A stretch of 64,000 nucleotides of DNA, taken from the NCBI GenBank assembly GCA_964016885.1, contig OZ024748.1, positions 34,348,001-34,412,000 on the forward strand, written 5' to 3'. Below, piece by piece: positions 49,682 through 64,000 of this stretch (the first letter of the stretch is position 1; each line of letters starts with the position of its first letter). The notes under the pieces were generated by a model that was not told where the DNA came from, made no database searches, and was given only the letters and a program-made list of their open reading frames with translations. The DNA is from Eledone cirrhosa (lineage: Eukaryota). Both the position numbers and the translations under genes were made by a program.

Positions 49682-49753
<72 letters not shown>

Positions 49754-49768
49754 TGTATCTATCTATAT

Positions 49769-50032
49769 ATATATAATCAAGGTTTACAAATAAGAAAAAG
49801 TTTCAAAATAAATTTCAAAAAATTTCGTAATTTGAACTCGGGAATTTTATACTCTCCGAGTGAAAAGAACCTTCTGACGAGAGTTTATCTTTTCAATGGA
49901 AGGCCGCAAGGACTGTCCATTTATTTTTGAAACTCGAAACCGATTTTGGCAAAGGAAACCATAATGAGTACAGTGAATTTTTTGAAATTTATTTTGAAAC
50001 CTTTTCTTATTTGCTAAACCTTGATTATATAT
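49769..50032 (+). mobile_element. ~265-bp non-coding element with ~56-bp inverted repeats enclosing a hammerhead motif, adjacent to TA/TG microsatellite
   Basis: Left arm ATATATAATCAAGGTTTACAAATAAGAAAAAGTTTCAAAATAAATTTCAAAAAATT (~49769-49824) is the near-perfect reverse complement of ~49976-50032 (one indel, one substitution). Mobility is inferred. Confidence 0.7.
49870..49955 (+). ncRNA. Type I hammerhead ribozyme motif with long stem II; U16.1 replaced by C, so probably inactive
   Basis: CCTT-CTGACGA-GAGTTT...AAACTC-GAAA-CCG ATTT TGG-CA-AAGG. Stems I, II and III all pair. Stem II is extended by AATGGA/TCCATT and a CC-GCAA-GG tetraloop. Confidence 0.75.
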
Positions 50033-50110
50033 GTTCTGGCTCGTTGGCATATGGTTGGACATTATATGTGTCCCTGGACGCTTTTTGCGTGTAAGGATAT
50101 ATACTTTATT

Positions 50111-50212
<102 letters not shown>

Positions 50213-50219
50213 GTAATTA

Positions 50220-51656
50220 TATATATCGTTTCTGAATTTGTTTAGCAAGATTCTTTATCTGAAAACGTTTGTTGAAACCGATATTGTTATACTTTGGGAG
50301 GGTGATGTTGCCAATAAGAAACACACGCACCAGTTGCTTTCACTTCAATTTATTATAAATTTGATAAATATAAGTTTGACAAATTTTATAAATTTCCGGT
50401 TGGTTGGTTGGTTCCGCAACCGGATGGTTGTTCATATATTGTCAAAGTTCTTTCGTCACGCATTCTGTGACCTCATCAGTGACCGGGGATTCTTTTCTTT
50501 GTTTTGTGCCTCTCCTTTGTTCTGTCCTATGTTTATGTGTGTGTTGTGTGCTTAGTTTGCGCATGTGTTACATCCGGGTGTCTGTGTGTGTTTTTATTTG
50601 TTTATTTATTTGTTTATTTACATGTTACTAGTTAGCTGTTTGTTCTATGTGTGTGTGTTTTCATTTTGTCCTTAATTATAAATTGTGATGTTTCTATTCC
50701 ATTCATGTTTTCTATTTAATTTTGGTTGGAGTTCATTTATGTTTATTGCCTCTGTGATTTCTCTAAACATTGCGTCTTTTCTGTGTGTAGATTCTATTTT
50801 TATCTCTATGTTCTCTAATTTGTCCTTATGTTCTATTTTAGCTTGTTGGTGGAGTATTGATGAGTCTTTTCTATCTTGGAATTCTCGCCAGTCTTCATTT
50901 AATCGTTCTCCTATGCTACGAGCTGTCACACCTATGTACATTATGTTCTTATTTTTACATTGTCCCTCACTACATCTTATGCTATATACTATGTTTCTAG
51001 TTTTACATTTAATATGGGGTCTTAGCTTACAGATTATGCATTTCCTGTCTATGCAGGAGGTCTTTGAAAAGGGTATGTATTACTAATTAGTGTTTTTATG
51101 GAGGTACCTGGTCTTTCCACTATCTTAATATTTCGTGTAAGTTTATCTAGGGCCCGTCTAAATTTGTAAGCTAGTTCACCTCTAGGGGTTGTATTGATGA
51201 ACATTACACTCTGGTATTTATTGCTATCATACCATGAGTTTATTTTATTAACCTTATTCCTAGTTCTTTCTATTATATTCCAAAATTTGCTCCTATACAA
51301 GGGGCAGGTCCCATTTGTATCATTATTTACCATATTTTCCCATTTGGTTCTAGCTCCTCTATTTTATCTCTCTGATTGTAGCCAGAGAATTGCATATGGT
51401 GGATGAAGTATTGTATGTGCCTCTCTAATTCTTTGGGGTTACACACGCGGGACGCGTTCCTCATCACCCTTACTAAATCCGCAATCAGTATGTTGATTTT
51501 GGTGTGATCCGAAACGGCTGAGTTTCGGTGGATCAGGTATTTGGAAGTCATGGGTTTGGCATAATGGGAATGGAGGATTTGTTGTTTTTTTGTTGTTTTT
51601 TGTTATCAATATTTTATAACCAGAGCTCTGGTTAGAAACCATTAATAACAAAAAAA
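50220..51656 (-). mobile_element. 5'-truncated Penelope-like retroelement (RT thumb, C-terminal GIY-YIG endonuclease, 3' UTR), frameshifted
   Basis: Three minus-strand frames join into ILHSHYAKPMTSKYLIHRNSA...SGY...CPLYRSKFW...SVMFINTTPRGELA...KIVERPG...CIDRKCIIC...CKTRNIVYSIRC...YIGVTARSIGERL...REITEA...LNRKHEW (stop at 50672). A hammerhead lies downstream and the 5' end is palindromic. The 3' boundary is approximate. Confidence 0.88.
50441..50483 (-). ncRNA. Minimal type I hammerhead ribozyme in the PLE 3' UTR/pLTR
   Basis: Minus strand reads GTCA-CTGATGA-G-GTCAC AGAATGC GTGAC-GAAA-G AA C-TT-TGAC: intact core, 4-bp stem I, 5-bp stem II, minimal stem III, same orientation as the PLE ORF. 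Confidence 0.85.
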
Positions 51657-52632: not shown

Positions 52633-53485
52633 CAAAGAAATAAGCGTGCTAATTGTAATTATGGCAAAGAAGGTAAAGTTACATTGTAGTAATGATTTGA
52701 GAAAAACTAGGATTTAGGATCAAATGATGGCAGCAGCTGAGAAGAAATAAGTTTGTTGGTAGATGAGGTACTTACAGACAATTATGTGGTATAGACTTGT
52801 GAAGGATAGAGTATACTTAATGAATATATTTCTGTGGGTAGTAGTTATCCTAATTTAAAGCTATGTTATGTTGGTTCGATTCACGGAGGTTTGAATCTTA
52901 TGAATTTAGTGGCTATTCTATGTCTGCAGAAGATAGATCTTTCTAGCTTATTGTTAAGTAGTCTTTTTACATTTTTAAGGATATACAATAGCTCAAGATC
53001 ACATAGCCCGCAGTGGGACATCCCTGTACTATAGGTTTTAGCAGCCGACAACTTCGACCAGTTGATACTGTAGTTAGTGTTACTGTCCTTCAATTCCCAT
53101 ATTTTTTTGGCGAGGGTTGTGGAACCCATAAGTGCACGGTTTTTCATTGAGTGTCTGTGCACATACCATCTTTTTTTAAAAGAACCCGCGGTGGATCCTA
53201 TGTAATTCCAGGTGGAGTTACCCGAGATGACCGTGCACATGTACACCAGGTTCGAATCGAGACATCTGTTCGCCAATGGGCACCTATCTGGGAGGTGACA
53301 GTTACAGTTTGAGGCGCTATTTTGTGCAACTTTTACATTCCTGTTTAGTACTCTGTTATAAGTGAGTTGTGATATACGCCCAATGGGGTTTTGCTGCTGC
53401 GCGTTTGTATGCGCTTGTATGCGCATACAAACGCGCAGCAGCAAAACCCCATTGGGCGTATATCACAACCCACTTATAACAGAGT
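52633..53485 (-). mobile_element. 5'-truncated Penelope-like element (GIY-YIG domain only, Nematis-like) with inverted 5' duplication
   Basis: ORF 52881-53444 contains CNC..CPL...CL...LVYMCTV...YIGST..SFKKRWYVH...TTLAKKIWELK...INW...CGLCDLE...LNNK...CRH. A 65-bp inverted repeat sits at the 5' end. Clade assignment is from remembered motifs and the 3' boundary is approximate. Confidence 0.88.
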
Positions 53486-53490
53486 TATAG

Positions 53491-54370
53491 CACGAAATAC
53501 CTGATTCACAAAAGAAATAGGGATGCAGGCAAGACACCTAGATGTGATAACACGTGCAGACTCTGCAGAACTAACATCGAGGATATCACCCATGTCATAA
53601 GCAGCTATCCAAAGATGTCATCGCGGTACTATCTACCTATGATGCATGATGTAGTGGCCAAAACACTATACAATGCAGTGCGTAAAAAGGATAGCCCCGA
53701 TAATAAACACATTAAAAGCTACAGCAATGTGGTAGACATCCATGTACATAATATGAAAGAGTACTGGTGGAATGTTCCAGTAAAATCCCCAATAAAATGC
53801 AGGCATAACAGACCAGATATTATGATATGGGACAGGGAGAAGAAAACATGCACAGTAGTGGAAATTAGCTGCCCAGCAGATGCCAATATAATATCAAAGA
53901 TTAGTGAAAAGGAGAATATTTATGCAGAACTGATGAGAAATCTGCAGATACTCCACCCTGATTACACCTTCAGATTTATGCCTGTGATTATTGGGACACT
54001 GGGATATGTTAGTAACAGCCTCAATAGAGATCTTGAGAAGCTAGGCTTCACAGGAACAGAAAGGACACAACTAGTTAGGAAATTACAAGTACAATCCATT
54101 AATGGAACAGTAAAAATATGTAAAACATTCCACACATTTTGCATCTAATAACTGCATATACACATGTACAGCAAGAAAGCATATACACATGCACACATAC
54201 AACTCAAAACATCCACATCCACACACACAATAACATCCATATCTACACATGCATACATACATATCTACCTAGTTGATGTTGTGTAAATTCCAATGAGAGA
54301 GTCTTGTGTCTATGTTAGAAACCGACTCTCTCTCTAGTGGGAAAAAGTTTGTGAAATTATAAAACAGAAC
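53491..54370 (+). mobile_element. 3' fragment of an R4/Dong-like non-LTR retrotransposon (CCHC knuckle, restriction-like endonuclease, 3' UTR)
   Basis: CRLC..EDITHVISS, MHDVVAK, HNRPDIMIWD..VVEISCP; ORF stop at 54148. Paralogous to 56990-57870 (14 of 177 aa differ). Followed by (ATAC)n to 54480. Confidence 0.92.
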
Positions 54371-54800: not shown

Positions 54801-54992
54801 ACCATCGGGGTTGCAGGTGTTATATCAGAGTTTTCCTTCTCCTAGAATTCTGCCTTCACAAAGGCTAAGAGGTCACGATCAGTCGCATATTTTGGTGTGG
54901 GAGACTATTTGATACCATCAGGGTTGCAGGTGTACATACATACATACATACATACATACATACATACATACATACATACATACATACATACA

Positions 54993-57870
54993 GAGTGCTG
55001 ACCTACGAAAAAACATAGGATATGTGACAATGCTCCTTACATGCAAACAAACACAAAAAAACCTCACTCCTCACCAACAAATAGTGAAAAATAAAATAGA
55101 GACGATGTTTGGTAACAGTAGAACCAGAACTCTCCAATATAAGCTGATCACCCTCAAACAAGAATTGAGAGCTGTTAGCGAAAATCGCCGATACCTGAAG
55201 AAGGTAGATGAGAGAAAAGTGCTTAATAAAAGATTCAGACGAAACCAAACATCAGTCTATAGAGATATGAAGGGCAAAATAATAAGTGCCACTGAGGCCC
55301 CATCCCAGAAAGACATAGATTCCTTTTGGAGAAAAATATGGGGTGAAAAGAAGAATTTCAACTAAGATGCAGTGTGGCTAAGGGAAAAACATACAAAATA
55401 AGTGAGGGTACCATTGAGACTGTGATAGGAAAACTCCAAGATAAGAAAACACCAGGAAGAGACATGATTGTCGGCTACCGGAACAAAAAACTAATATTCT
55501 ATCGGAGGTATCTTACTGACCTCTACCAACAAGTTCTTAAGGGAGATACACTTATACCAGAATGGTTGACATTAGCACAAACGTTACTGGTCCCCAAGAA
55601 CAAAGACACCCACTTGGCAAAAAACTACCGACCCATTGCATGACAGAACCTGATGTATAAGATGTATACAGCCTGCCTCAACCTATTCCTCCAAGATCAC
55701 TGTGAAAATAATAACATCATCACAGATGAACAAGCAGCTGGAAAGAAAGAGGTTTGGGGATGTGCTCAATAACTCCTAATCAACAAAACTGCGATGTCGG
55801 AGGTGCGAGAACTTAGGAGGAATATGACTACAGTCTGGCTGGACTACAGGAAAGCTTTCGATTCTGTTCCCCACTCTTGGATAATAGAGGTCCTCCAACT
55901 TGCTAAAGTCTCAGACCTTATTGTCTTATTGTCAGAGCCATAGAGAGGCTGTCTTCTTCTTGGGCTACTATCCTAAGGTTAAAGACAGAGAGGGACGACT
56001 CTATTTTCACTGATAAAATAAAATATTGCAGGGGTATATTTCAGGGGGACAGTCTCTCTGTGATATTATTCATCTTGTCATTAAACCCCTTGTCCTTTCT
56101 GCTCAAGAAATGTGAGGGATACATCATTGGCTCACAGGAGGACAGCAATACGAACCTAACCCATAATTTCTTTGTGGACGATCTGAAACTATACCATGAA
56201 CATGAATGGGATGAAGAAAAATCTTGACCTGGTTACAACGTTCTCAAAGGATATAGGAATGGAGTTTGGCCAAGATAAATGCTCATACATGACTGTAAAG
56301 CGGGGAAAAACAACAACCCAATCTAGCAACATTGTGATCAATGGCCTAACTATTTCACCGATATCTGATGAGGACTGCTACAGATACCTTGGAATGGATG
56401 AGAACATATCCTATAATGGTATCTATAATAAAGAACGCGTAACCAGGGAATACTACACCCGATTAAGAAAGATCTGGTCATCGGAACTCTCTGCGCAAAA
56501 CAAAACAGTGGCTCACAATGTGTTTGCTGTGCCTGTCCTAACACCAACGTTTGGAATACTCAATTGGACGATAGACGAAATCCGAGCAGTTGATGTTGGA
56601 ACTCGAAAAATACTGAACAACACCGGAAACTTCCACATCAACAGTGACATAGACCGCCTTTACTTGAAACATAAGCAGGGAGGCATAGGCCTAACATCAG
56701 TCCAGACAACATTTGAATGTCGCATCATATCTCTCTGACAACATCTACGAACCTCGAAGCGTAGGGGCCCGTTTCTCAGCAAATCTATCTGCATGAAACA
56801 GATAAGATCATGAGAGTTGGGAAGGAACTCCTTGAGAGATATTCCCTGTGTGATAATCAAAAACTCACACCCAGGGATGTCGCTCAGCAGTATCGCAGTG
56901 AATCAATGGATGAAAAACTGCATGACTATCAGCAAAAAATCATGCATGGATATGTTGCCAGCTTTTGTAATCCAAGAACAGGAGACTAACACGAAATACC
57001 TGATTCACAAAATAGGGATGCAGGCAAGACACCTAGATGTGATAACAAGTGCAGACTCTGCAGAACTAACATCGAGGATATCACCCATGTCATCAGCAGC
57101 TGTCCAAAGATGTCATCGCGGTACTATCTACCTATGAGGCATGATGTAGTGGCCAAAACACTGTACAATGCAGTTCGTAAAAAAGATAGCCCTGATAATA
57201 AACACATTAAAAGCTACAACAATGTGGAAGACATCCATGTACATAATATGAAAGAGTACTGGTGGAATGTTACAGTAAATACCCCAATAAAATGCAGGCA
57301 TAACAGACCAGATAGTATGTTATGGGACAGGGAGAAGAAAACATGCACAGTAGTGGAAATTAGCTGCCCAGCAGATGCCAATATAATATCAAAGATTAGT
57401 GAAAAGGAGAATATTTATGCAGAACTGATGAGAAATCTGCAGATACTCCACCTTGATTACACCTTCAGATTTATGCCTGTGATTATTGGGGCACTTGGGT
57501 ATGTTAGTAACTGCCCCAATACAAATCTTGAGAAGCTAGGCTTCACAGGAACAGAAAGGACACAACTAGTTAGGAAATTACAAGTACAATCCATTAATGG
57601 AACAGTAAAAATATGTAAAACATTCCACACATTTTGCATCTAATAACTGCATATACACATGTACAGATACAAAGCATATACACATGCACACATACAACTC
57701 AAAACATACACATCCACACATACAATAACATCCATATCTACACATGCATGCATACATACATATCTACCTAGTTGATGTTACGTAAATTCCAATGAGAGAG
57801 TCTTGTGTCTATGTTTGAAACCGACTCTCTCTCTATTGGTAAAACTTTGTGAAATTATAAAACCAGAAGA
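54993..57870 (+). mobile_element. Decayed, 5'-truncated R4/Dong-clade non-LTR retrotransposon (RT plus RLE), flanked by (TACA)n on both sides
   Basis: RT motifs KNYRPIA, EQAAGKK, WLDYRKAFDSVPH, GIFQGDSLS, FFVDDLKL, DIGMEFGQDKC, YRYLG; DRLYL..QGGIGL; IQEQE; CRLC..H..C; RHD; RPD..D..EISCP. Several stops and frameshifts; final stop at 57643. Confidence 0.95.
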
Positions 57871-61140: not shown

Positions 61141-64000
61141 TCACACAACGTCAGTCCCAATGTAACTACACCAACACCAGTCATTATGTAACCAAACCGA
61201 GGCCAGTCACCATGTAACTAGACCAACCGGGCACAATGTGACTAGACCAACACCAGTCACAATTTCTCTAGACCATCACCAGTCACAATGTAGCTAGACC
61301 AACACCAGTCACAATGTAATTGGACCAACACCAGTCACAATGTCATTAGACCAACACCAGTCACAATGTAACTAGACAAACACCAGTCACCATGTAAATA
61401 GACCAACACCAGTCACAATTTAACTAGACCAACGCCAATCGCAATGTCAGTAGACAAACACCACTCACAATGTAAATAGACCAAAACCAATAACAATGTA
61501 ACTAGACCAACACCAGTCACAATGTCATTAGACCACCACCAGTCACAATGTAACTAGACCAACACCAGTCACCATGTAAATAGACCAATACCAGTCACAA
61601 TGTAACTAGACCAACACCAGTCACAATTTCTCTAGACCATCACCAGTCACAATGTAACTAGACCAAAACCAGTCCCAATGTAACTAGACCAACACCAGTC
61701 ACAATGACATTAGACCATCACCAGTCTCAATGTAACTAGACTTACGCCAGTCATAATGTAACTAGACCAACCGAACACCAGTCACAATATAACTAGACCT
61801 ACGCCAGTCACAATGTGACTAGACCATCACAACACCAGTAACAATGTAACTAGACCTGCGCCAGTCTCAATGTGACTAGACCAACAGCAATCACAATGTA
61901 ACTAGACCAACACCAATCACAATGTCACTAGACCAATACCAGTCAGAATGTAACTAGACCAACACCAGTCACCATCTAACTAGACCAATACCAATCACAA
62001 TGTAACTAAAGCAACCCAACGCCAATCCCAATGTTACTAGACCAACACCAGTCATTATGTGACTAGACCAACACCAATCACGATGTAACTAGACCAGCGC
62101 CAGTCACAATATAACGAGACCAACGCCAGTCAAAATGTTACTAGACCAACATCAGTCACAATGTAACAAGAACAACGCAAGTCACAACGAAATTAGACCA
62201 ACGGCTGTCACAATGTAACTAGACCGACACCAATCCCAAGTTAACTAGACCAAACCAACGACAATAACAATGTACATAGACTTACGCCAGTCATAATGTA
62301 ACTAGACCAACCGAACACAAGTCACAATATAACTAGACCTACGCCAGTCACAATGTGACTAGATCATACCAACACCAGTAACTGTGTAACTAGACCTGCG
62401 CCAGTCTCAATGTGACTAGACCAACACCAATCACAATGTAACTAGACCAACACCAATGACAATGTAACTAGACCAGTGCCAGTCACACTGTAACAGGTCC
62501 AACGCCAGGCACAATATAGCTAGACCAACGCCAGTCATAATGTTACTAGACCAACAACACTCACAATGTAACTAAACCAACATCAATCACAATAAAACTA
62601 GACCAACGCCAATCACAATGTAACTAGACCAACGCCAGTCACAGTGTAGGTAGGCCAACGCCAGTCACAGTGTAATTAGAACAACACCAGTCGCAATCGA
62701 CTAGATCAACGCCAATCGCAATGTAACTAGACCAACGCCAATCAAGTTATAACTGGACCAACTCCAGTCACAGTGTACTTAGACCAAAGCCAATCACAGT
62801 GTGACTACACCAACGCCAATCACAGTGTAATTAGACCAACACCAGTCACAATGTAACTATACCAATGCCAGTCACAATGTAACTAGACCAACGCAATCAC
62901 AATGTAACTAGACCAACGCGAGTCACAATGTAACTAGACCGACGCTAGTCAGAATGTAACTAGACCAACACCAATGACATTGTGACTAGAGCAACACCAA
63001 TCACAATGTAATTAAACCAAGGCCAGTCACAATGTAACTAGACCAACGTCAATCACAATGTAACTAGACCAACACCAGTCTCCATGAGACTAGACCAACG
63101 CCAGTCACAATGTAACTAGACCAACGCCAGTAACAATGTAACTAGACCAACGGCAATCACAATGTAACTAGAATCACACCAGGCACCATGTAACTAGACC
63201 AACGCCAGTCGCAATGTAACTAGACATATCCCAACACCAATAACAATGTAACTGGACCAACGCCAGTAACAATGTAATTAGACCAACAGCAGTCAGCATG
63301 TAACTAGACCAACACCAATCACAATGTAACTAGACCAACCCAACGATAATCACAATGTAACTAGACCTACGTCTGTCATAATGTAACTAGACCAACCCAA
63401 CACCAGTCACAATGTAACTAGACCTACGCCAGTCACAATGTGACTACACCATCCCAACACTAGTAACAATGTAACTAGACCTGCGTCTGTCTCAATGTAA
63501 CAAGACCAACACCAATTACAATGTAACTAGACCAACACCAATCACAATGTTACTAGACCAACACCAGTCACTATGTCATTATACCAACACCAATTACAAT
63601 GTAACTAGACCAGCGCCAGTCACAGTGTAACAAGGCCAACGCCAGTCGCAATGTAACTAGACGAACACCATTCACAATGTAACTAAACCAACACCAATCA
63701 CAATAAATCTAGACCAACACCAATCACAATGTAACGGAGACCAAAGCCAGTCACAGTGTAATTAGACAGACGCCAATCATAATGTAACTACACCAACGCC
63801 AGTCACAATTTAACTAGACCAATATCAGTCACCATTTAAGTAGAATAACACCAGTCACCATGTAACTAGACCAACGCCATTCACAATATAACGAGACCAA
63901 CACCAGTCACAATGTAACCAGACAGACGCCAGTCACAATGTAACTAGACCAACGCCAGTCACAGTGTTATTAGATCAACACCAGTGGCAATCGACTAGAC
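61140..64000. repeat. 26-bp tandem satellite, consensus CACCAGTCACAATGTAACTAGACCAA, with 30-bp variants
   Basis: About 105-110 diverged units running to the window end (array open on the right). Confidence 0.98.

What the first reader, a model, noticed from the sequence alone, without database searches (positions are those of the whole stretch)
49769..50032. Hammerhead ribozyme packaged inside long inverted repeats: candidate retrozyme/MITE-like mini-element
Seen: a ~265-bp unit whose ~56-bp ends are reverse complements. It would fold into a rod carrying a type I hammerhead (CUGACGA/GAAA core; stem I CCUU/AAGG, possibly extended by UACUC/GAGUA; long stem II with a GCAA tetraloop; 3-bp stem III). 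It abuts TA/TG microsatellite and has no credible ORF. Known: PLEs and non-LTR retrozymes carry type I hammerheads, usually in direct repeats, and PLEs make inverted ends and favour microsatellites. Inference: a non-autonomous ribozyme element mobilised by PLE machinery, or a solo pLTR with an inverted duplication. This copy has C in place of the conserved U16.1.
Basis: partly seen in the sequence, partly recalled or inferred. Interest (0 to 1): 0.75.

Follow-up and report, generated by a model that had tools for sequence, protein, structure and literature searches.

The report
Penelope-pasted long-stem hammerhead retrozyme family
This is one damaged, cut-short copy of a roughly 485-base non-coding repeat whose ribozyme motif occurs over 2,000 times in this animal genome; the motif is predicted to cut its own RNA, and the mirror-image ends differ from copy to copy and were likely made during insertion by a Penelope-type jumping gene copying the RNA from two fixed start points.

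Summary
The inverted arms and the hammerhead are real, but the 264-bp unit is not the element. It is a 5'-truncated insertion (49769-50111) of a non-coding, head-to-tail 483-486-bp monomer family; 1,029 + 1,071 exact stem III motifs mark two subfamilies. Arm lengths vary (60-957 bp), so they are not MITE termini. In 79 position-ordered insertions, 30 are two-armed. In 25 of these one arm stops at site A and the other at site B, about 110 nt further on; none has the same end twice. That is the Penelope 'tail' footprint, and the neighbouring autonomous PLE shows it too. U16.1 is intact in 93 of 96 copies; only the window copy has C. Subfamilies show four compensatory pairs. Young arrays of 9-13 units are identical across both arms and carry private alleles, which fits copying round one RNA circle but does not prove it. 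Cleavage, expression, circles and the driver PLE are untested. Verdict: a non-LTR retrozyme variant with an oversized stem II that Rfam misses. This scan has already noted the same two-armed architecture in other families of this genome; no note matched this family's sequence.

The parts
49769..49824 (-). Inverted arm: monomer positions u430-486, ending at fixed site A (..CCTTGATT|ATAT) against (AT)n
49824..50032 (+). Forward arm, u279-486 of the 486-bp monomer; 5'-truncated; 1-nt overlap with the inverted arm
50033..50111 (+).
49870..49955 (+). Type I hammerhead motif with a 55-nt stem II; this copy has C at U16.1 (49950) and is predicted inactive; predicted cut after 49951
49836..49861 (+). 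Hairpin 5' of stem I, with two compensatory pairs between subfamilies
49862..49894 (+). GAAAAGA (49862-68) complementary to UCUUUUC (49888-94): either a stem I-stem II pseudoknot or a blocking fold; 6 of 7 pairs kept, no real covariation
49696..49768 (.). (TA)n/(TG)n microsatellite, left target flank
50112..50226 (.). (AT)n microsatellite, right target flank, shared with the neighbouring PLE
50215..51600 (-). Neighbouring 5'-truncated autonomous-type PLE (C-terminal GIY-YIG with a Cys-rich linker; Neptune/Nematis-like by motif, no tree built) with a minimal hammerhead at about 50441-50483; a separate insertion and only a candidate driver
   Evidence: (Pfam GIY-YIG E 0.009, below cut-off)

Best explanation
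The stretch is one 5'-truncated, core-mutated insertion of a non-coding 483-486-bp tandem repeat family (a non-LTR retrozyme) whose hammerhead is predicted to cut multimeric transcripts into monomers that likely circularise and are likely copied into (TA)n by a Penelope-like reverse transcriptase/endonuclease. Shown: tandem monomer, copy number, intact core in most copies, two fixed 3' ends (A and B, about 110 nt apart), variable 5' ends, (TA)n targets, and A/B pairing in two-armed insertions. Inferred: the PLE protein nicks both strands of (TA)n and primes one cDNA at site A and one at site B on the same RNA species; each cDNA runs a variable distance, often past one full monomer; the two are joined at short microhomologies, giving mirror-image arms, one with a tail. 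If only one priming succeeds (mostly A), a single arm results. The inverted repeat is a by-product of insertion, not part of the RNA. Predicted: after the cut, AAGGU pairs with a second ACCUU at site A and would switch the ribozyme off in the monomer or circle. My odds: PLE-type insertion about 0.9, self-cleavage about 0.8, circular template about 0.55.
For: Copy number: 1,029 and 1,071 exact stem III motifs of two subfamilies, 2,236 of the 5' core, 740 head-to-tail junctions, controls 0. Position-ordered sample of 79 insertions: 30 two-armed (25 A/B, 0 A/A, 0 B/B, 5 with one odd end; 25 of 25 has p = 3e-8 against 50:50); 49 single-armed (42 A, 4 B, 3 other); 101 of 109 3' ends abut AT repeat; 19 of 30 arm junctions overlap by 1-10 nt; 39 of 101 arms exceed one monomer. 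Younger subfamily, 42 insertions (not random): 12 A/B, 1 A/A, 5 odd. The neighbouring PLE family has two fixed ends 63 nt apart; in 28 insertions 9 two-armed ones pair one end of each kind and 2 have the same end twice. PMC11167929 shows an Anolis PLE cutting and extending both strands from two internal start sites that delimit the tail; PMC8557442 describes inverted 5' copies, a one-sided tail and (TA)n preference. Hammerhead: U16.1 in 93 of 96, whole core in 84 of 96; 94.8% of cells paired, compensatory changes at 4 pairs between subfamilies, 2 of them in stem II; the isolated motif folds as a hammerhead. Single template: L232 has 8 full units differing by 1 base but 6 and 12 differences from two other arrays; L282 has 13 segments, 0 of 481 differences between arms and 3 private alleles throughout; arm-versus-arm divergence is 67 of 5,589 bases over 17 insertions; 14 of 34 private alleles occur in both arms.
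Against: Nothing here shows cleavage, transcription or a circle. In full-length context the predicted fold does not form the hammerhead in the 486-bp subfamily (stem I probability near 0; 0.03-0.57 with 50 nt upstream). Stems I and III show no compensatory change, and the count of pairs with two-sided change (5) does not beat shuffles (319 of 500). 5' ends do not pile up clearly at the predicted cut. In 128 older insertions the arms shared no more rare alleles than the nearest other insertion (0.8 vs 0.63 per kb). Only 7 of 17 young two-armed insertions have arms closer to each other than to every other insertion. Two arrays (L233, L285) carry alleles in only some units. Homogeneous arrays also fit a linear transcript of an unsampled homogeneous array, or gene conversion. 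The driver is not identified: the monomer has no significant alignment to the neighbouring PLE's 3' UTR (165 of 500 shuffles as good). The intact-core counts are inflated because part of the sample was picked by a pattern that contains core bases.
Confidence: 0.8

Rival explanations
1. Same family and PLE-type insertion, but the template is an uncut linear multimeric transcript of a tandem source array; the hammerhead is dispensable for copying and no circle is involved.
For: PMC11167929: hammerhead mutants did not affect insertion in vitro and unprocessed RNA was the main substrate. No clear 5'-end peak at the cut site. Predicted folds block the hammerhead in context. Partly shared alleles in L233 and L285.
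Against: Core conserved across subfamilies about 78% alike, with compensatory stem II changes; arrays of 9-11 identical units with array-private alleles; related retrozymes accumulate as circles in coral, mussel and axolotl (PMC7229834).
Confidence: 0.3
2. The unit is the terminal repeat (pLTR) of an autonomous PLE not yet seen; the window copy is an ordinary truncated end with the usual 5' inversion.
For: Same insertion footprint as a real PLE. Only about 170 insertions were read (128, 42), and DNA searches scored only the best 40 candidates. One locus joins the unit to a PLE body (L180/L231).
Against: The unit closes on itself head-to-tail (740 exact junctions; arrays of up to 11 units in one arm). 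No PLE coding sequence is joined to the 5' end of 72 single-armed copies. The tail runs on into the monomer, whereas the neighbouring PLE's end runs on into its ORF.
Confidence: 0.08
3. A MITE-like DNA element with fixed terminal inverted repeats that folds into a rod around the ribozyme.
For: In this one copy the arms are 56/57 bp and 96% complementary.
Against: Arms vary from 60 to 957 bp, 49 of 79 insertions have none, and this copy extends 79 bp past the right arm.
Confidence: 0.01

Closest known systems
Metazoan non-LTR retrozymes (Cervera and de la Pena 2020, PMC7229834, parts 2-4 of 6 read, supplement not readable; Li, Clavereau and Pollet, bioRxiv 10.64898/2026.07.22.740005, parts 1-3 of 5 read)
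   Same: Non-coding tandem monomer with one type I hammerhead per unit, GC below 50%, dispersed monomers to multimers, thousands of copies, co-existing with PLEs.
   Different: Monomer of 483-486 bp (170-400 nt in the 2020 paper; 51-972 bp in the preprint); 55-nt stem II with an internal loop that Rfam misses; insertions carry PLE-type inverted arms and two fixed ends, which the parts read do not describe; no target-site duplication can be read in (TA)n; no pLTR homology to the one PLE tested.
EN+ Penelope-like elements and their non-autonomous derivatives (Craig et al. 2021, PMC8557442, passages read; Frangieh et al. 2024, PMC11167929, parts 1-2 of 4 read)
   Same: 5' truncation, partial tandems, inverted 5' copy, tail at one end only, (TA)n targeting, type I hammerhead.
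   Different: No ORF; tail about 110 bp rather than 30-40 bp; hammerhead has a full stem III and long stem II rather than the minimal PLE form.
Pseudoknotted hammerheads (Perreault et al. 2011, PMC3088659, passages read)
   Same: A possible Watson-Crick contact between the stem I side and stem II.
   Different: Here it would join the 5' flank of stem I to an internal loop of a long stem II; conserved but without covariation, and equally readable as a blocking fold.

Membership tests
Non-LTR retrozyme | Tandem monomers of a few hundred bp, each with a type I hammerhead | tested here: met
   483-486-bp period; arrays of 3, 9 and 11+2 units; 740 exact junctions
Non-LTR retrozyme | Hammerhead core C3-A9, G12-A15, U16, H17 with stems I-III | tested here: met
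   84 of 96 family segments intact; structure kept; not met by the window copy itself (C16.1)
Non-LTR retrozyme | No coding capacity, no LTR/PBS/PPT | tested here: met
   Longest ATG frame 79 codons; no ORF joined to 72 single-armed copies; PBS/PPT not searched separately
Non-LTR retrozyme | Self-cleavage in vitro | not testable with these tools
   Only folding predictions, which are mixed
Non-LTR retrozyme | Expressed as monomeric linear and circular RNA | not testable with these tools
   No RNA holder listed
PLE-mobilised element | Fixed 3' ends with a one-sided tail, variable 5' truncation, inverted 5' copy | tested here: met
   25 of 30 two-armed insertions A/B, none with the same end twice
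PLE-mobilised element | Sequence similarity to an autonomous PLE's terminal region | tested here: inconclusive
   Only a 9-mer shared with the neighbouring PLE (8 of 5,000 shuffles; 0.9% of control windows; post hoc; different offsets from the ends); no global alignment
Autonomous PLE (pLTR of) | RT plus GIY-YIG ORF bounded by the repeat | tested here: not met
   None seen in the insertions read; one ambiguous junction
MITE | Constant terminal inverted repeats and uniform length | tested here: not met
   Arms 60-957 bp; 49 of 79 insertions without arms

The most novel reading that the evidence does not exclude
A PLE protein dimer loads on one 485-nt circular RNA at two structured start sites, primes from both ends of a (TA)n break and rolls round the circle up to 11 times. 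The circle protects itself with a built-in switch in which the site A stem steals the ribozyme's stem I strand, and the hammerhead uses a 7-bp pseudoknot into a long stem II. This family would then be a ready-made, non-coding substrate for reconstituting retrozyme retrotransposition and explaining PLE inverted ends.
Probability: 0.35. Interest if true: 0.7.

Novelty: new variant of a known kind. Interest (0 to 1): 0.45.

Why it matters
How animal retrozymes get back into the genome is proposed but not shown in the papers read (PMC7229834 discussion; the 2026 preprint says the mechanism remains to be elucidated), and how PLEs make tandem/inverted ends and tails is also open (PMC8557442, PMC11167929). 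This family gives exact predicted priming sites, a strict one-of-each rule for the two arms, and very young arrays whose two arms are identical, so both questions become testable with a short RNA. It also shows a hammerhead shape that Rfam misses. The window copy itself is an ordinary dead fragment, and this scan has already noted the same architecture in several other families of this genome, which limits the added value.

Tried and rejected
Rfam: no hammerhead hit for the window, the region or an intact copy; hits are microsatellite noise. Expression: no RNA holder listed; three contig runs of one sample, kind unknown, only confirm the family and the window copy's tail deletion as a departure. 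RNA-editing scar: no A>G excess (68 A>G vs 87 T>C; 5 vs 6 private and 9 vs 15 single alleles in the young subfamily). Peak of 5' ends at the cut site: not clear. Single-template test in older copies had no power. Fold-back copying of the tail-bearing cDNA was rejected as the general model because either arm can be the longer one. Retrozyme-PLE chimeras: L226 and L078 are separate neighbours; L180/L231 fits a template switch or a later deletion at a 3-nt microhomology equally. Driver search: the TTGCTAAAC-(TA)n pattern listed almost only this family and the neighbouring PLE in its first 100 rows, but the pattern was made from them; clustering TA-flank ends gave no better candidate; the top PLE copies are only 95-96% like one query. 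One search used a mis-registered structure (my error) and is void; one search is the corrected count. RNAalifold found no compensatory pair in the A and B end region, so the site A stem and site B hairpin rest on conservation and per-copy folds. Not in print: five paper searches listed no paper on this family or on two-armed retrozyme insertions; subscription papers and the PMC7229834 supplement were not seen and could bear on this. The organism was not determined; 'octopus-like' comes from earlier notes.

Full report
Observation. The two arms (49769-49824 and 49976-50032) are 96% complementary and the 264 nt fold far better than shuffles (z = -10.8). The hammerhead parts sit as described, with C at position 16.1. 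Rfam does not recognise the motif here or in an intact copy. The window lies in a 3.0-Gb animal genome, among microsatellites and retroelement fragments.

What the unit really is. A genome search gave 1,863 first-look candidates, of which 40 were scored. Most match only positions 56-264 of the finding. Reading the loci shows a 486-bp monomer repeated head to tail. The window copy is an inverted u430-486, then u279-486, then u1-108 with a 28-bp deletion, so it spans 49769-50111. Exact-pattern counts are 1,029 and 1,071 for the stem III motifs of two subfamilies, 2,236 for the 5' core and 740 for the unit junction, all with control 0. These count units, not insertions. The second subfamily has 483-485-bp units, is about 78% like the reference and includes very young copies. 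There is no credible ORF.

Architecture. From the first 100 pattern rows on contig 1, in position order, I read 79 distinct insertions (6 duplicate loci dropped). Thirty are two-armed, 49 single-armed. The 3' ends fall at two sites: A (u486) and B (about u100-116 of the next unit). Of 30 two-armed insertions 25 pair A with B, none has the same end twice, and 5 have one odd end. Single arms end at A in 42, B in 4 and elsewhere in 3; independent choice at those rates would give A/B in only 16%. 101 of 109 3' ends abut AT repeat, 5' ends are spread over the unit, 19 of 30 arm junctions overlap by 1-10 nt, and 39 of 101 arms are longer than one monomer. An earlier, partly overlapping and BLAST-biased set of 74 gave 32 A/B, 1 A/A and 3 odd of 36. 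Forty-two young insertions, chosen with a bias to multi-copy places, gave 12 A/B, 1 A/A and 5 odd of 18. Constant terminal inverted repeats are therefore excluded.

PLE footprint. PMC8557442 (passages) describes partial tandems, an inverted 5' copy, a 30-40-bp tail often at one end only, and (TA)n targeting. PMC11167929 (parts 1-2) shows a PLE protein cutting and extending both strands, starting at two internal RNA sites that delimit the tail, with a predicted dimer. The PLE beside the finding (50215-51600, minus strand; weak Pfam GIY-YIG) has two fixed ends 63 nt apart; in 28 insertions 9 two-armed ones pair one end of each kind and 2 repeat an end. This makes PLE-type insertion the best reading (inferred). 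Which PLE drives the family is open. The neighbour shares only TTGCTAAAC near one end (8 of 5,000 shuffles, post hoc, different offset) and no global similarity, and that motif is also part of an internal stem of the retrozyme.

Ribozyme. U16.1 is present in 93 of 96 segments, with the only C in the window copy; 84 of 96 have the whole core; the triplet is GUA. Part of this sample was chosen by a core-containing pattern. On 30 aligned copies 94.8% of cells pair. Four pairs change on both sides between subfamilies, two in stem II and two in an upstream hairpin; stems I and III are invariant and so uninformative, and the number of such pairs does not beat shuffles. The isolated motif folds as a hammerhead, but in full context the 486-bp subfamily is predicted to misfold through GAAAAGA/UCUUUUC. 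That 7-bp match is conserved without covariation and could be a pseudoknot of the kind in PMC3088659 (passages) or a blocking fold. After the cut site, AAGGU can pair with a second ACCUU at site A (kept in 26-28 of 28 copies per pair). Predicted stem I probability falls once that strand is made (0.80 to 0.37 in a young copy; 0.25 to 0.04 in an older one), which suggests an off switch for the finished monomer. All of this is prediction.

Template. L232 has 8 full units differing by one base, but 6 and 12 differences from two other arrays. L282 has an 11-unit and a 2-unit arm with 0 of 481 differences and three private alleles throughout. Over 17 young two-armed insertions the arms differ at 67 of 5,589 bases, in 7 of 17 they are closer to each other than to any other insertion, and 14 of 34 private alleles are in both arms. 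So both arms likely came from one sequence. A circle explains this simply, but a transcript of a homogeneous parent array or gene conversion is not excluded, two arrays are mixed, and older copies gave no signal. No RNA data could be used.

The window copy has one hammerhead, a mutated core and under one unit of sequence, so it could not release a monomer. Its rod-like fold is a by-product of insertion.

Comparison and verdict. It works like, and on every testable feature is, a metazoan non-LTR retrozyme (PMC7229834, parts 2-4; bioRxiv 10.64898/2026.07.22.740005, parts 1-3); cleavage and circles are untested. It differs in the long stem II and in the two-armed, 110-bp-tail footprint, which five searches did not find in print (PMC11722881 passages). 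Earlier unchecked notes of this scan report the same architecture for 310-, 422-, 467- and 520-600-nt families of this genome; none matched this family's sequence. New variant of a known kind; interest 0.45.

Noticed in passing
window 1-46827 and 61152-63985: A 40-bp satellite of about 1,170 copies fills most of the window; a 26-bp satellite of about 107 copies ends it.
   Followed up: no
window 50215-51600 (-): High-copy (TA)n-targeting PLE family (4,007 first-look candidates) with a minimal hammerhead and two fixed ends 63 nt apart; its ORF starts about 45 nt past the distal end in L159 and L161.
   Followed up: partly
window 52881-53462 (-), palindrome at 53376-53459: A second GIY-YIG-like frame with a CxC..CP..C linker (Hydra-like by recall; no Pfam hit) whose 5' end is an 84-bp fold-back.
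   Followed up: no
window 53480-54150 and 54913-57643 (+): Two broken copies of a non-LTR retroelement with RT, CCHC and restriction-like endonuclease motifs followed by (ACAT)n (R2/R4-type by recall).
   Followed up: no
L180 1871-4001 / L231 699-2862: Retrozyme u258-486,u1-390 joined through a 23-nt inverted PLE piece to a PLE body; template-switch chimera or later deletion.
   Followed up: partly
L176 5365-7293 (+): A 643-aa open PLE frame of another family begins right after an end of the neighbouring PLE family.
   Followed up: no
L233, L285: Young arrays in which several alleles are shared by only some of the units, unlike the uniform L232 and L282.
   Followed up: partly
L095, L101, L028 flanks: Another repeat sitting in (TA)n with a long internal palindrome (CCCCGACGG..CCGTCGGGG) recurs beside these insertions.
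   Followed up: no
L232 and the 483-bp subfamily: Stem III loop is the palindrome GAUC rather than AUU, a shape that may allow cleavage as a dimer as in newt and axolotl motifs (PMC7229834).
   Followed up: no
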